Shown here one piece after another: positions 17,301-51,527 of a stretch of 51,527 nucleotides of DNA. Position numbers: made by a program. The stretch lies in contig MQRK01171752.1 of assembly GCA_001938485.1 (NCBI GenBank), positions 39,449 to 90,975 on the forward strand, given 5' to 3'. Source of the stretch: Girardia tigrina. Lineage: Eukaryota. Within the stretch, counting starts at the first letter, position 1. Each line of letters begins with the position of its first letter.

Positions 17301-20300
17301 CATCAATGTTATATATATATATATATATATATATATTTGAAAATTATTTTGTTAAATCTTTTTTAAGATATTGATTATTGAACATCTTTGCAAGAATATA
17401 GGTAGTGTCAAAGTGGTTCCGATTATATCCAACGTTCAAAATTTTCTCTAAAATAAATCGAAAACGATTTATGGATTGTAAGCTAATGTGGTTTTTAAAT
17501 TTATTGTTACTGGGGGACCGAAGAGAACTAGTAAGTGGAATGCTAACGACCCCGTAGGAGGCCTATCGGGGGACAGGTAGATTCTTTAGTTGGGTGGACC
17601 CTCTAAAGAGCCTACAGCTCAATACCATTCGAAAGAGATTGGAGGCCCACGTTGGAGAGATCAAGGATCTCTGAGTGTAAGGCCAGATTGGACGTACCTT
17701 CGCGCGGTATCCATAGGAAACTTGAGTTCTCTTCTCTAGGCTAAAGCGTCCTGAGTTGAGCCAATGGCTTGTCTGAAAGGTTGGCAGCCGATGTATCGAT
17801 ATTTGACTAGCAAACCAATATCTTGAAGGCCCAGCTTCAAAAACTGAGTTTCGTGGCTGTGGGGAGTAGTGACCCTGCAGTCGCGTGGTCGATTGAATCG
17901 CAATGATCCAAGATTTCTAATCTTGATGAGGGGTGTAGGGAAGCCGGTTTGCCGGTGGAGCTTAGGCATGTGAATTCACGCATGGGGGGGTGTCTTTTGA
18001 TGCCATATGCGTTTCAGAGCTCCTAAAAAGCCTCAGGCTTAATATCTTATAGGATGTGAGGATAACGTTGGAGAGATAAATCGTCATCGCAAAACCCTGA
18101 TTGTGAGCATTCAAATTGAATATCGAAAAAGGTTCTTGATCATTGATTACATTGTAAAAATATAATCTCTTCTGTTTCAAAGGATGAATTTTCTGTTTTA
18201 CCGAAGGGCTTTGATTCACATTATGAGACACAGTTCTATGGATCATTATTGACAAGACACTAAAACCTATTAACAAAGTAAAGCCGTTTCAAATCTTAAA
18301 AATTTTTAGTTGAATTTCAAAACGTTTTGACATTATTATCCAATAATATGTTAAATAATTAAAACAAATCAAAAAGCCATTAACTAACTTGTTTAAAACT
18401 AACAAATATTAAATTATAATTTCTGATGATGTAGTATGAAATTCTGAAATATGTTCAATAATCAATTTCTCTAGAAAGCTTATACAAAATGATTTTTTAT
18501 TATATATTGTGATTATTATCTTTTTATTAGTCTTGTGATCGCTAATGTGATATTTTTGAAAAATAATTTTGTTATAGCTTTTTGGAGAAATTGATTATTG
18601 AACACCCTCCGGAATTTCTTATTTCATATTAACCATGACAATTCAGATCAAAACAAGGTAATATATTAGGTTGAGGAATAAGTTCCCACCGTTTTTTGAA
18701 TTTTTAATCAATTTAATATTTAAATCAAATTTTTTGATGTAATGTTATATGTTATTTGAAAGCTATTGTTTTGCTCTAAAAAAATGGTGTATTTTGTTTT
18801 TTTATTCAAATTAATTTTTGTCGATTTTTAGACCATTGAAATGGAGTGTCAAGTCGACAAAAATGAGCATTTCCGACACGATCTATTGTTTGAGTATAAT
18901 CGAGGCGCCAAAGACGCAGACGCTGCTCGAGAGCTTTGTGCTCTATACGGAGAGGGTGCTATAGCTGATAGAACCGCTCGTGATTGGTTCGCAACATTTA
19001 AAATTGGCAATTTTGACCTCAAGGATGCACCTTGTTCAGGACGACCAAATGAATTCGATGAAGAGCGTTTGAACAACCTTTTGCATGAAGACGCGCGTCA
19101 AACTACTCGAGAATTGGCGGAACAAATGGATTGTGATCAAAAAACTGTCGTGAACCACCTGAAATCAATGGGAAAAGTTCAAAAAATGGGAGCTTGGGTC
19201 CCACATCTTTTGACAAAAAAACAACAAAAACCAGCGATCCACAATTTCGGCGAGTTTACTTGCCCGTCATCGCTCTACTCACGGTCATAAGCAACAATTT
19301 CTTTATCGAATTGTAACGGGTGATGAAAAATGGTGCCTGTACGTCAATATGAAACAGCGCAAAGAATGGCGTAGCCGAGAAGAACAATCGACACCGCGAG
19401 CAAAACAGGATCTTCATCCACGAAAGACAATGCTTTGCGTTTGGTGGGGTTGAGAATGGAAACCAAACAGTGAACGCAGAACTATGTTCAACAGCTGCAT
19501 AGACTCAACGCCGCTATAAGACAAAAATATCCGGATCGACAACATGGCGTTATTTTGCAATACGACAATGCACGTCCTCATATTGCCAGAATGACAAAAG
19601 AAGCAATTCAAACGCTTGGTTGGGAAGTGTTACCGCACCCTCCGTATTCACCTGACTTGGCTCCATCTGATTTTCATCTTTTCCGTTCGCTTCTAACGCT
19701 TTGCGTGGTGTTTCGTTCAACAATAATGAAGAACTGAAAGTTTGGTTGGCTGAATTCTTCGAGTCAAGACCGCGCGATTTCTACCAAAGAGGCATTGAAA
19801 AACTCGTTGAACGTGGGGAAGAAGTCGTGAATAATGGCGGAGATTATATTTGTGATTAATTTGTAGTAACTTTTTTGTTAAAAAATAAAATTTTAATTTT
19901 TCAAAAAACGGCGGAAACTTATTCCTAAACCCAATACTTCATACGTGTTACTCTCGAAATTATTTCTTGACATTGCTATCTATCCTTATCAGACAAAATA
20001 AGCTTCTTTGAAAGACCGTTACGGAAAATATGATCATTTGAGTATATAATTCAGTATATAAAGCTACTTTGGCAGATTTTGCAACAACTAAATCGATTTT
20101 CAATTATATTTTTTATAGGTGAAATGGTAGAAAAGAGACAAACTTTTACGAGAGAGATTATATAAACATACATTTATGGTTTTATTAGTGAATAATAGGG
20201 TCTTGAACAGATGTTAATAACCATTAGTAGAGCAGATCAATCAAGTTAAATTTTCAACGTCTATAAGTTTACATAATACATTTTATATTAATTTATGAGC

Positions 20301-49400: not shown

Positions 49401-51527
49401 CACATTTAAATTTGAATTAAAATTTAATTTAAAAATTTTAAAAATAATAATAATATAAATATAATTTTGATATACACACCTAAATACTGAATTGTGAAAC
49501 CCAGTGGCGGTCGTAACAATTGCTTCATCCAGGCTAATTTAATAATTTCCAGGAAATTATCACCGCCTCCGAGCATGATAACGTGAGGGTCGATGTGACC
49601 GACAAGAACGCAATTTTGAACGGCTTGTATAAGGCTTAAATTCCAATGATTAAGAGCATTTGCAGCTTTAAACGAGGCAAATAATTCGAATACATTCGAT
49701 ACAGAATTCGAAATCGACGAAAGACTTTGAAAACTTATTACGATTATTTTTTTGCTTTTCGACTGACTGAAGAGTTGACTTAAAGAAAAAAATATTATAT
49801 TCAGTTTTACGAGTTGCTATTTTTCCAAATAATTTTCATTGAAACAATTAAAATTTTTCAATTAGAATAACTCACCTCATGATAAAATATTTTATTATTT
49901 ACTTTAATTTCACAAAAATAATAAATCCATTAAAAATGTTTAAAATGTTGCAATGAATATTTGATGAAATTAGTTCACTTAAACAACGGAAATTTTTGAT
50001 TTGTGAATTTTGAAAAATAAAACTTAAGTTACATTTATTTATAATTGTAATCAATTTTTTTGGTATTGTGTAGTGATGAAATATTTTCTCTAAATTACAT
50101 TAATTTTAGTATACTGAATCCATAAAATGATAATTTTAAAAATGATGAAATAAAAAGTTGAATGACAATTTAATTTATTGAAAATAAACTAGTTAATGTT
50201 TTTTATGTAAAATATTAAAGGATCATTATATGAAAGGTTACATTTTTCGCTTTTGGTCTTTGTTTTTAACTCTTCTTAAAACTAAAAAAAGAGTTTTAAG
50301 AAGAAAACAACAATAAAGTCACTTGTTGTTCCGGAATGTTTATGTTAAATCTTTTATTAAAAAAGTAATAAAGTAAAAAGATTTAGCAACTTTTCAACCC
50401 CCCTTCCCCTCGAGTGATGGATTTAAGTGCGAACGATACTACTGATTGTCATAGAGATGATCAAACTTGTCAATGTAATACATGTTCTATCAAATGTGTG
50501 AGTTCTCTTAACAATTATGGTTACTGCTTTTAAAACATTTACTCATTCAAATGTTAATCCTACGTATATTAAATGCTAATTTCGAACAAACTGATTATTA
50601 TTGTAATAAAATTGTATTTCATCTATATCCCCATCAGATTTTGTCATATTCTTTTTAATTTATTTACTTTTACAAAAGGATGCTCTTTATGCAATTTCAA
50701 AATTTCTGTCGTTGAGAGTTTGTACCATTTGTTTTCATAGGTCGAAGCAGGACATTTCGACGACCCCATTTCGAAGGTAGAAATTATTTTTTTAATTTTT
50801 ATAAAGTAGTATTATTAGATTTGAAATGAAATATTTTTTTCTAAATAAAAATTTTTGAAAATAAAGTGAAATAATTTTTATAAATTAAGATTTTTAGGAA
50901 TAAAGTGATATAATTTCTACAAAAGTTAAATGATGCGACTAATAACGATCAATGAACTTCTTTATTAAAAAAATATATGATAAATGTAAAAAGAAATAAC
51001 TGCTTATAAAGAAAAAATGTATTCTATCACTATAAATAACAGTACAAAAATAAAACGAAAGTAATTAACAAGAAAATCGGTTGATATGATAATTTAATTT
51101 AATAATCTAACGTTATTGGTCGGATCCGGATTCGAATAGTCTGCGTAGTGGGTGATTTGTTAATGATAGTTCGAGTAAATAGTACCGTAGACCAGTGCTT
51201 GGTCGCGCTGCGATTGCCTTGAGCCATACAATAATTAAAAAAAATGAAATTAAATAATTAAATAAAAGGTTAAATTAAATCATTTAAATAAAATTTAATT
51301 AAATTAAAGAATTAAATAAAAATATATAAGTATAGTAGTGTAAAAATGGGCGTTCTCCCTCACTACCCACCCCCCCCAGGAACGATAACCATGGCAACGG
51401 TCACGATCACCCTAGCAACGGTCGCGATCACCCTAGCAACGGTCGCGATCACCCTAGCAACGGTTCCGATCACCCTAGCAACGGTTCCGATCACCCTAGC
51501 AACGGTTCCGGGTCACTTGGTAACGGT

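What the first reader, a model, noticed from the sequence alone, without database searches (positions are those of the whole stretch)
20288..49880. Divergent storkhead-box gene hidden across two 14-kb TE-filled introns
Seen: four coding exons totalling ~1.06 kb spread over 29.6 kb, with consistent splice phases. The best-conserved exon (49480-49778) is not in the ORF track, and the two other large exons look like unrelated ORFs until joined (VYNTG+HGYNVMT). Known: the family includes STOX1/2, C. elegans ham-1 (asymmetric neuroblast division) and Drosophila knockout. Inference: a functional, probably under-annotated developmental regulator in this lineage.
[Added by the scan's program, not by the reader: the finding's places include an assembly gap (unread letters, written N; its length is only estimated) at 30010 to 30199, 30339 to 30388. 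Whether the letters on both sides are continuous or in frame is not known: test that first.]
Basis: partly seen in the sequence, partly recalled or inferred. Interest (0 to 1): 0.68.

Follow-up and report, generated by a model that had tools for sequence, protein, structure and literature searches.

The report
Divergent storkhead-box gene with long introns
An intact but very divergent gene of the storkhead-box (STOX/HAM-1/Knockout) family of winged-helix regulators is split by two 14-kb introns in an AT-rich animal-type genome: an ordinary new family member whose two ends remain unsettled.

Summary
All have canonical GT/AG sites and matching phases. Searched exon by exon, only exon 3 hits Pfam Stork_head: E 2.2e-5, 25.0 bits against a cut-off of 27, profile 2-70 of 79, stopping at the exon's last residue. 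One database protein, P0001, is 97/99 identical to exon 2 and 82/85 to exon 3. It reads straight across their junction. P0002 is 124/144 identical to exon 4, with two in-frame gaps, and ends at a candidate donor at 20347/20346.

Still open:
- the exon 3 to exon 4 join;
- the 5-nt first exon, because P0001 has a different 70-residue N-terminus that is absent from the window;
- the last 57 nt of exon 4.

Exon 2 has no detectable link to the named family. No named STOX relative came back. Both N runs lie inside a Tc1-like transposon in the downstream intron, far from any exon. Recognisable transposon sequence covers about 6-14% of the introns, so "TE-filled" is not shown. The joined-exon search was left out by rule, and no structure could be predicted. 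Verdict: a new member of a known kind, of low to moderate interest.

The parts
49876..49880 (-). Candidate first coding exon (ATG plus 2 nt) ending in a consensus donor. Plausible but unverified.
   Evidence: ATGAG|GTGAGT occurs once in the window, against 0.03 expected from shuffles. An in-frame stop lies 21 nt upstream (read). Against it: P0001 carries 70 different residues upstream of the same acceptor, and they are absent from the window.
49779..49875 (-). Candidate short intron (97 nt), or the 3' end of a longer intron from an exon outside the window.
   Evidence: A pyrimidine-rich acceptor ends at 49779. The frame of exon 2 is closed by a stop 13 codons upstream with no ATG between, so an upstream exon is required.
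49480..49778 (-). Exon 2: 99 full codons, the region N-terminal of the winged helix.
   Evidence: Open frame. P0001 is 97/99 identical. P0001 departs from the window exactly at both ends of this exon. No Pfam hit at E<=1 and no credible PDB hit.
35283..49479 (-). Upstream long intron, 14197 nt, GC 0.244.
   Evidence: P0001 joins exon 2 directly to exon 3. 10 ORFs scanned, no domain. A 229-nt relative of the Penelope-like GIY-YIG piece lies at 39893-40121, and inverted-repeat pairs lie at 35660-36445 and 38581-40284. Three (AT)n or AT-rich tandem arrays.
35025..35282 (-). Exon 3: 85 full codons, most of the Storkhead-box winged-helix domain.
   Evidence: Pfam PF10264 Stork_head E 2.2e-5, 25.0 bits (cut-off 27), residues 8-85 on profile 2-70 of 79. 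P0001 is 82/85 identical and gives the same domain, E 6.3e-5.
20788..35024 (-). Downstream long intron, about 14237 nt (the length depends on two estimated gaps), GC 0.264.
   Evidence: Donor GG|GTAACA and acceptor TTTTTAG|GG in matching phase. P0001 leaves the window sequence exactly at the donor. The join to exon 4 itself is inferred.
29884..31313 (+). Tc1-like DNA transposon inside the downstream intron. It holds both N runs (30010-30199, 30339-30388). Its transposase cannot be judged for intactness because the gaps lie within it.
   Evidence: 107-nt terminal inverted repeats, 99% complementary. DDE_3 E 4.9e-16. N runs located. Only distantly related to the other Tc1-like element of the window.
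20345..20787 (-). Exon 4, conserved part: 147 codons, the presumed last strand of the winged helix plus a Ser/Asp/Arg/Lys-rich C-terminal region with one basic cluster.
   Evidence: Open frame. P0002 is 124/144 identical, with two one-residue in-frame gaps, over 20770-20345. Composition and basic cluster. No Pfam or PDB hit.
20288..20344 (-). Unconserved AT-rich tail up to the first stop: either the true C-terminus or the start of a further intron after a candidate donor CG|GTAAGA.
   Evidence: P0002 ends exactly at 20345. GC is 0.228 against 0.424 in the rest of the exon. AATAAA at 20186-20181 would fit a terminal exon, but it is weak evidence in AT-rich DNA.

Best explanation
The region encodes an intact, expressed-looking but very divergent member of the storkhead-box family (vertebrate STOX1/2, C. 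elegans HAM-1, Drosophila Knockout).

Shown: exon 2 and exon 3 are spliced together across 14.2 kb. Exon 3 encodes most of a Stork_head winged-helix domain, which is cut by the next intron nine profile positions before its end.

Inferred: exon 4, 14.2 kb further on, supplies the last strand of the domain and a faster-evolving charged C-terminal region with one basic cluster that could serve as a nuclear localisation signal. Translation starts either at the ATG of a 5-nt coding mini-exon 97 nt upstream of exon 2, or in an exon outside the window, as in P0001.

By analogy with HAM-1 and STOX1 (not tested here), the protein would act through its winged helix by binding DNA or a partner protein. 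The region before the box would contribute to localisation, as the HAM-1 N-terminus does.
For: - Pfam, exon by exon: exon 3 alone hits Stork_head at E 2.2e-5, profile 2-70/79. The match runs to the last residue of the exon.
- P0001 gives the same hit.
- Specificity: 70 other stretches of the window gave only transposon domains plus one incoherent hit at E 2.6e-3.
- P0001 (258 aa) is 97/99 identical to exon 2 and 82/85 to exon 3, with a single G between the two blocks. That is exactly the split codon predicted by the junction 49480/35282.
- P0001 leaves the window sequence at 49778 and at 35025, the other two predicted splice sites.
- P0002 is 124/144 identical to exon 4 with only in-frame gaps.
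- All sites are canonical and all phases compatible.
- Exons stand out in GC.
- From base composition, open frames of 85-165 codons have probabilities of 4e-4 to 3e-7.
- Family background: passages of PMC5489525, PMC7765495 and bioRxiv 10.1101/504787.
Against: - The Stork_head score is under Pfam's gathering cut-off (25.0 and 23.6 against 27 bits).
- Exons 2 and 4 have no family hit.
- Three word-indexed searches returned no named STOX, HAM-1 or Knockout protein.
- P0001 does not continue into exon 4: after the exon 3 block it ends with G plus two other residues.
- Whether P0001 comes from a transcript or from a gene model of a related genome is unknown. Its junction is therefore independent of this window, but it is not proof of splicing.
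- An assembly gap lies between exon 3 and exon 4.
- The model has no proline-rich PxxP motif like the one described for HAM-1.
Confidence: 0.72

Rival explanations
1. The gene is storkhead-like, but the reader's exon chain is wrong at one or both ends. Exon 4 would belong to another transcript or be only one of several 3' ends. The real 5' coding exon would lie outside the window. The reading frame might also continue past 20345 into further exons.
For: - P0001 ends with two residues that are not exon 4.
- P0001 has a 70-residue N-terminus with no match in the window (best E 0.49). A frame open that long has a probability of about 0.001 by base composition (computed for 74 codons).
- P0002 stops at a GTAAGA candidate donor, and the tail after it has intron-like GC.
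- An assembly gap lies between exons 3 and 4.
Against: - The Stork_head match is cut at profile position 70 of 79 at the end of exon 3, so a continuation is needed. Exon 4 is the nearest open, conserved, same-strand segment with an acceptor in the right phase.
- ATGAG|GTGAGT is unique in the window, at 0.03 expected.
- P0001's two-residue end could be an artefact of a truncated gene model.
- The terminal repeats of one element bracket the gaps.
Confidence: 0.3
2. The Stork_head match is a chance or convergent match. The gene is then a lineage-restricted protein of another helix-rich or winged-helix type with no relation to STOX, HAM-1 or Knockout.
For: - The score is below the gathering cut-off.
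- No named relative in three protein searches.
- Atlas feature search: no usable hit.
Against: - E 2.2e-5 for one protein against all 24736 Pfam models. That is about 1.6e-3 after allowing for the 73 stretches of the window and the one database protein searched (my arithmetic).
- The match covers 69 of 79 profile positions and ends only because the exon ends.
- The word-indexed searches need shared exact 5-mers, and their E-values are scaled to 5.8 billion sequences, so they are blind to 20-30% identity relatives.
Confidence: 0.12
3. The exons are a decaying remnant (pseudogene) kept open by chance.
For: - Very long introns carrying transposon insertions.
- No annotated protein of this genome in the database.
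- Uncertain start and stop.
Against: - No stop or frameshift in 331 codons across three exons.
- 86-98% amino-acid identity to two proteins from other sources, with only in-frame gaps.
- All six splice sites are canonical.
Confidence: 0.05

Closest known systems
C. elegans HAM-1 (storkhead-box protein of asymmetric neuroblast division)
   Same: - A small protein with the Stork_head winged helix in the N-terminal half.
- A functionally important region lies before the box. In HAM-1 the residues G47 and G58 are essential and needed for cortical localisation (passages of bioRxiv 10.1101/504787).
- Nuclear localisation signals are described for HAM-1; here there is one basic cluster in exon 4.
   Different: - No direct sequence comparison was possible, because no tool returned HAM-1.
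- The HAM-1 proline-rich motif has no PxxP counterpart in the 147 conserved residues of exon 4.
- The HAM-1 length of about 414 aa is recalled, not seen in a call. The model here gives about 353 aa.
Vertebrate STOX1 / STOX2
   Same: The Pfam family PF10264 is named after the STOX1 winged helix, and exon 3 matches it. STOX1 binds DNA through this domain (passages of PMC7765495).
   Different: - STOX1/2 are much longer proteins (recalled).
- Nothing outside the box could be compared.
- The score here is below the family cut-off.
Drosophila Knockout (ko) and its insect orthologues
   Same: They belong to the same family, PANTHER PTHR22437, according to PMC7765495. In ants the gene is annotated as storkhead-box protein 2 and has at least 7 exons (table passage of PMC13251583).
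   Different: Insect orthologues are well represented in public protein sets, yet none shared enough words with exons 2 or 3 to be scored. This gene is therefore not a close relative of them.

Membership tests
Storkhead-box family (Pfam PF10264 Stork_head; PANTHER PTHR22437) | Stork_head winged-helix domain at or above Pfam's gathering score (27 bits) | tested here: inconclusive
   Exon 3 alone scores 25.0 bits, E 2.2e-5. P0001 scores 23.6 bits, E 6.3e-5. Both are significant but under the cut-off, and both are truncated at profile position 70-71 of 79 by the exon end.
Storkhead-box family (Pfam PF10264 Stork_head; PANTHER PTHR22437) | Complete domain (all 79 profile positions present and contiguous in the protein) | tested here: inconclusive
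   Positions 2-70 are on exon 3. The last nine would fall on the first residues of exon 4. That stretch is too short to score on its own: no hit for exon 4 at E<=1.
Storkhead-box family (Pfam PF10264 Stork_head; PANTHER PTHR22437) | Named family members returned as best hits by sequence search | tested here: inconclusive
   Searches returned only P0001, or nothing, among 164, 48 and 254 word-sharing candidates. These searches cannot see distant relatives. The exhaustive search was used on exon 4 and found only P0002 plus nine hits to a short repeated motif. The two of those nine that I read (P0004, P0008) are long tandem-repeat proteins, so I take them as chance matches.
Storkhead-box family (Pfam PF10264 Stork_head; PANTHER PTHR22437) | Conserved region N-terminal of the box (the HAM-1 G47/G58 region) | not testable with these tools
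   No library at hand models this region and no family sequence could be fetched. Exon 2 gives no Pfam hit and no PDB hit.
Storkhead-box family (Pfam PF10264 Stork_head; PANTHER PTHR22437) | Winged-helix fold of the box | not tested
   Structure prediction was not accepting jobs. The Atlas's own model of P0001 has pLDDT 0.42 and gives meaningless neighbours. No PDB chain is related by sequence.
Storkhead-box family (Pfam PF10264 Stork_head; PANTHER PTHR22437) | Nuclear and/or cortical localisation, and DNA or partner binding | not testable with these tools
   Only a basic cluster in exon 4 was seen. Taking it as a localisation signal is inference.

The most novel reading that the evidence does not exclude
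The locus encodes a compact, fast-evolving HAM-1-like protein of a poorly sampled AT-rich animal lineage. The segment before the box (exon 2) would be a lineage-specific module rather than the family's conserved N-terminus. Alternative first exons and an alternative 3' end (as in P0001) would produce an isoform whose winged helix lacks its last strand. That would be a natural truncated form that could act differently from the full protein.
Probability: 0.12. Interest if true: 0.4.

Novelty: new member of a known kind. Interest (0 to 1): 0.25.

Why it matters
If it holds up, this adds a strongly diverged storkhead-box gene to a small family whose mode of action is still debated: transcription factor or cortical polarity factor in HAM-1 (passages of bioRxiv 10.1101/504787). 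A distant member shows which residues of the box, and of the segment before it, are really constrained. In practical terms, it is an example of a short regulator gene that ORF-based or short-range gene finders miss. Its exons are 258-500 nt apart by 14 kb, and one of them has no start codon. The scientific surprise is small.

Tried and rejected
- **Joined-exon search.** P0001, a database protein that naturally spans exons 2 and 3, was used instead.
- **Word-indexed protein searches.** Searches with exon 2, exon 3 and P0001 residues 75-256 against longer proteins found only P0001, or nothing.
- **Exhaustive search with exon 4.** It returned P0002 and nine repeat-motif matches. I rejected those nine as chance: each matches the same 40-60 residues of the query in 4-10 stretches. 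P0004 and P0008, the two I read, are tandem-repeat proteins.
- **Atlas.** P0001, whole and as residues 75-256, gave no feature hit and only low-TM neighbours of a poor model.
- **PDB sequence search.** Searches of exons 2, 3 and 4 gave only chance-level rows, best E 0.01.
- **Structure prediction.** No fold search was run.
- **Bacterial and archaeal genome contigs.** Scanned with exon 4 and exon 2 in case of host contamination: 42 and 266 pattern matches, none confirmed.
- **RNA searches.** Rfam at gathering thresholds on the whole window, and at E<=0.1 on 20000-51527, found 0 matches. No tRNAs were found.
- **Further exons.** I looked for downstream exons in 1-20288 and for the N-terminal exon of P0001 anywhere in the window and found nothing. 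The GC-rich block 17540-18290 on the minus strand has no domain and does not read like coding sequence.
- **Virus-like stretch.** 72 of 139 stop-to-stop ORFs of >=55 aa were scanned, plus one 44-aa piece. No reverse transcriptase, integrase, capsid or other viral hallmark domain appeared. The hits were DDE and HTH transposase domains and one GIY-YIG endonuclease.
- **Source organism.** I did not try to identify it. The window does not look human: 26% GC, with Tc1/mariner and Penelope-like elements.
- **Paper supplements.** Closed and not consulted. They might hold family alignments bearing on exon 2.
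Full report
**What the window is.** It is 51,527 bases at 20-35% GC in 2-kb steps. It has two N runs, 30010-30199 and 30339-30388. It carries Tc1/mariner-type and Penelope-like elements, no tRNA and no Rfam family. Nothing about it looks human, and I did not try to identify the organism.

**The gaps, tested first.**
- Both N runs lie in the long intron between exon 3 and exon 4, 4.6 kb and 9.2 kb from those exons.
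- They sit inside one Tc1-like DNA transposon (29884-31313). Its 107-nt terminal inverted repeats are 99% complementary and lie one on each side of the gaps. A DDE_3 transposase domain follows the second gap (E 4.9e-16).
- No reading frame of the gene in question crosses a gap. Frame continuity matters only to the transposase, which cannot be judged.
- The bracketing repeats make the scaffold locally coherent but do not prove continuity, because two copies of one family at contig ends would look alike. The adjacency of exons 3 and 4, and the intron length of 14,237 nt, therefore rest on the scaffold.

**The observation.**
- On the minus strand the three large segments are open exactly as stated: 99, 85 and 165 full codons.
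- The boundaries are canonical: AG|GTGAGT after the 5-nt ATGAG; a pyrimidine-rich acceptor before 49778; AG|GTGTGT after 49480; TTTTCAG before 35282; GG|GTAACA after 35025; TTTTTAG before 20787.
- The phases fit.
- The exons total 1,062 nt. The introns are 97, 14,197 and 14,237 nt.
- Exon GC is 0.38, 0.44 and 0.42, against 0.24 and 0.26 for the long introns.
- From base composition, frames this long stay open with probabilities of 1e-4, 4e-4 and 3e-7.
- Exon 2 is absent from the ORF lists. It has no early start codon, and a stop closes its frame 13 codons upstream of the acceptor.

**Family signal, exon by exon.**
- I left out the search of the joined exons.
- Exon 3 alone matches Pfam PF10264 Stork_head, the 'winged helix Storkhead-box1 domain'. 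The figures are E 2.2e-5 and 25.0 bits against a gathering score of 27, with residues 8-85 on profile positions 2-70 of 79.
- The match ends at the last residue of the exon, with nine profile positions still to come. That is what an intron inside the domain would produce.
- Exons 2 and 4 match nothing at E<=1.
- As a control on the method in this AT-rich DNA, I scanned 70 other stretches of the window at E<=0.01. They gave only mutually coherent transposon domains (HTH_Tnp_Tc3_2, DDE_3, HTH_48, Transposase_1, GIY-YIG) and one incoherent hit at E 2.6e-3 (DUF4895).
- No PDB chain is related by sequence to any exon.

**Relatives.**
- The word-indexed searches with exon 2 and exon 3 against longer proteins each returned a single protein, P0001 (258 aa), among 164 and 48 candidates.
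- P0001 is 97/99 identical to exon 2 and 82/85 to exon 3. The two blocks are separated by exactly one glycine, the codon split by the predicted junction 49480/35282.
- P0001 stops resembling the window at the acceptor 49778. Its first 70 residues have no counterpart anywhere in the window (best E 0.49). It diverges again at the donor 35025, where it ends with G and two residues that are neither exon 4 nor intron read-through.
- P0001 is therefore independent evidence for four of the six splice-site positions and for one complete junction.
- Its origin is unknown to me. It is a singleton cluster with a database handle. It could be a translated transcript or a gene model from a closely related genome, so it is not proof of splicing in this organism.
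- P0001 gives the same Stork_head match (E 6.3e-5, profile 2-71/79).
- A search with P0001 residues 75-256 against proteins of 453-2000 aa scored nothing among 254 candidates.

**Exon 4 relatives.**
It found P0002 (144 aa, E 9e-75).
- By tblastn, P0002 covers 20770-20345 at 124/144 identity with two single-residue in-frame gaps.
- P0002 ends exactly where the window has CG|GTAAGA.
- The other nine hits each match the same 40-60 residues of the query in 4-10 stretches. The two I read are long tandem-repeat proteins, so I take them as chance matches to a short motif.
- No named STOX, HAM-1 or Knockout protein came back from any search.

**The two ends of the gene.**

5' end:
- Exon 2 needs an upstream exon.
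ATGAG|GTGAGT occurs once in both strands of the window against 0.03 expected. It lies 97 nt upstream on the right strand and in the right phase, and an in-frame stop lies 21 nt before the ATG.
- P0001 instead shows 70 other residues spliced to the same acceptor. A frame open that long has a probability of about 0.001.
- The two may be alternative first exons, or one of them may be wrong.

3' end:
- Conservation stops at 20345.
- The remaining 57 nt to the stop have GC 0.23.
- Either the protein ends in an unconserved tail, with an AATAAA about 100 nt after the stop, or there is a further intron and exon. I could not find such an exon in 1-20288.
- The exons have no second copy in the window.

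**The introns.**
- Tool-supported transposon sequence amounts to two stretches: the Tc1-like element (1,430 nt, including 240 N) and a 229-nt stretch at 39893-40121. The second is 69% identical to the GIY-YIG/Penelope-like piece at 15.7 kb. Together they make 5.8% of 28,434 intron bases.
- Adding two stretches bounded by inverted repeats (35660-36445 and 38581-40284) gives 13.8%.
- An ORF at 31412-31669 reads like a transposase fragment by eye but has no Pfam or PDB hit.
- Twenty intron ORFs gave no domain.
- Without a repeat library, 'TE-filled' is not shown. The two introns share no sequence despite their near-equal length.

**The virus-like stretch named by the operators.**
- I scanned 72 of the 139 ORFs of >=55 aa, plus one shorter piece. 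None carries a reverse transcriptase, integrase, capsid or other viral hallmark domain.
- The mobile elements seen are DNA transposons and one Penelope-like endonuclease fragment.
- I described them as they stand.
- 67 mostly AT-rich ORFs were not scanned, so I cannot say which stretch was meant.

**How it most likely works.**
- Shown: a conserved, intact, spliced coding unit (exons 2 and 3) that carries most of a Stork_head winged helix.
- Inferred: exon 4 completes the domain and adds a faster-evolving Ser/Asp/Arg/Lys-rich tail with one basic cluster that could be a nuclear localisation signal.
[quoted passage not shown] It needs residues before the box (G47, G58) and a proline-rich motif for cortical localisation, and whether it acts in transcription is unsettled (passages of bioRxiv 10.1101/504787). 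STOX1 is reported to bind DNA through the box, and ko and ham-1 are called orthologues of STOX1/2 (passages of PMC7765495; PMC5489525).
- The gene here has no PxxP motif in its conserved part.

**Comparison and verdict.**
- The locus works like, and most probably is, a storkhead-box gene. However, the one defining feature I could test, the domain at the family's own threshold, is inconclusive rather than met. The region before the box could not be compared at all.
- I rate it a new member of a known kind, with confidence 0.72 for the family assignment.
- For the junctions I give about 0.95 for exon 2/exon 3 and about 0.7 for exon 3/exon 4. These four numbers are my judgement.
The metagenome and viral contig collections and paper supplements were closed. 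The DNA context of P0001 and P0002, and any published family alignment, therefore stayed unchecked.

Noticed in passing
window 5200-6852: Tc1-like DNA transposon with terminal inverted repeats, 80 nt at 99% and extending to about 145 nt at 94%. It carries HTH_Tnp_Tc3_2 and DDE_3 domains. The two domain matches lie in separate ORFs of one frame, so the transposase frame has at least one interruption. It is only distantly related to the element in the intron.
   Followed up: partly
window 15527-16451: A 261-codon open frame on the minus strand ending in a GIY-YIG endonuclease domain (E 1.1e-5), lying between 83-nt inverted repeats (94%). It reads like the endonuclease end of a Penelope-like retroelement. 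No reverse-transcriptase part was found next to it and there is no PDB relative. A 69%-identical 229-nt relative lies at 39893-40121.
   Followed up: partly
window 18832-19856: Mariner (Mos1-like) transposon remnant on the plus strand, a few hundred bases from the end of exon 4. HTH_48, Transposase_1 and DDE_3 matches fall in three separate ORFs, so there are at least two frame changes. The first piece matches Mos1 transposase residues 5-130 (E 1.6e-22).
   Followed up: partly
window 3-227: Another Mos1-like transposase fragment at the very start of the window. It matches Mos1 residues 254-307 (E 2e-23) and is cut by the window edge. It gave no Pfam hit at E<=0.01.
   Followed up: partly
window 51383-51510: GC-rich 21-nt tandem repeat, 6.1 copies at 94% matches (also family D3). 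It is open in two plus-strand frames as 7-residue repeats and has no Pfam hit. It could be a minisatellite or a repeat-bearing exon of a neighbouring gene.
   Followed up: partly
window 17540-18290; 22030-22250; 22500-23130; 34200-34600; 49186-49380: GC-rich islands (0.37-0.53 GC) in otherwise 20-30% GC DNA, with ORFs of 55-117 codons and no Pfam hit. The last one lies 100-300 nt inside the upstream long intron, next to exon 2. Their nature is unknown: transposon debris, regulatory sequence or unrecognised exons.
   Followed up: partly
window 20788-35024 and 35283-49479: The two long introns differ in length by only 40 nt (14237 against 14197) yet share no sequence. I take this as coincidence, and the first length depends on estimated gap sizes.
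   Followed up: yes
window 2277-2314, 32899-32930, 41515-41557, 46446-46482: Four (AT)n/(TA)n microsatellites of 16-21 copies. They account for most of the 'repeat families' and inverted repeats that the repeat finder reported.
   Followed up: yes
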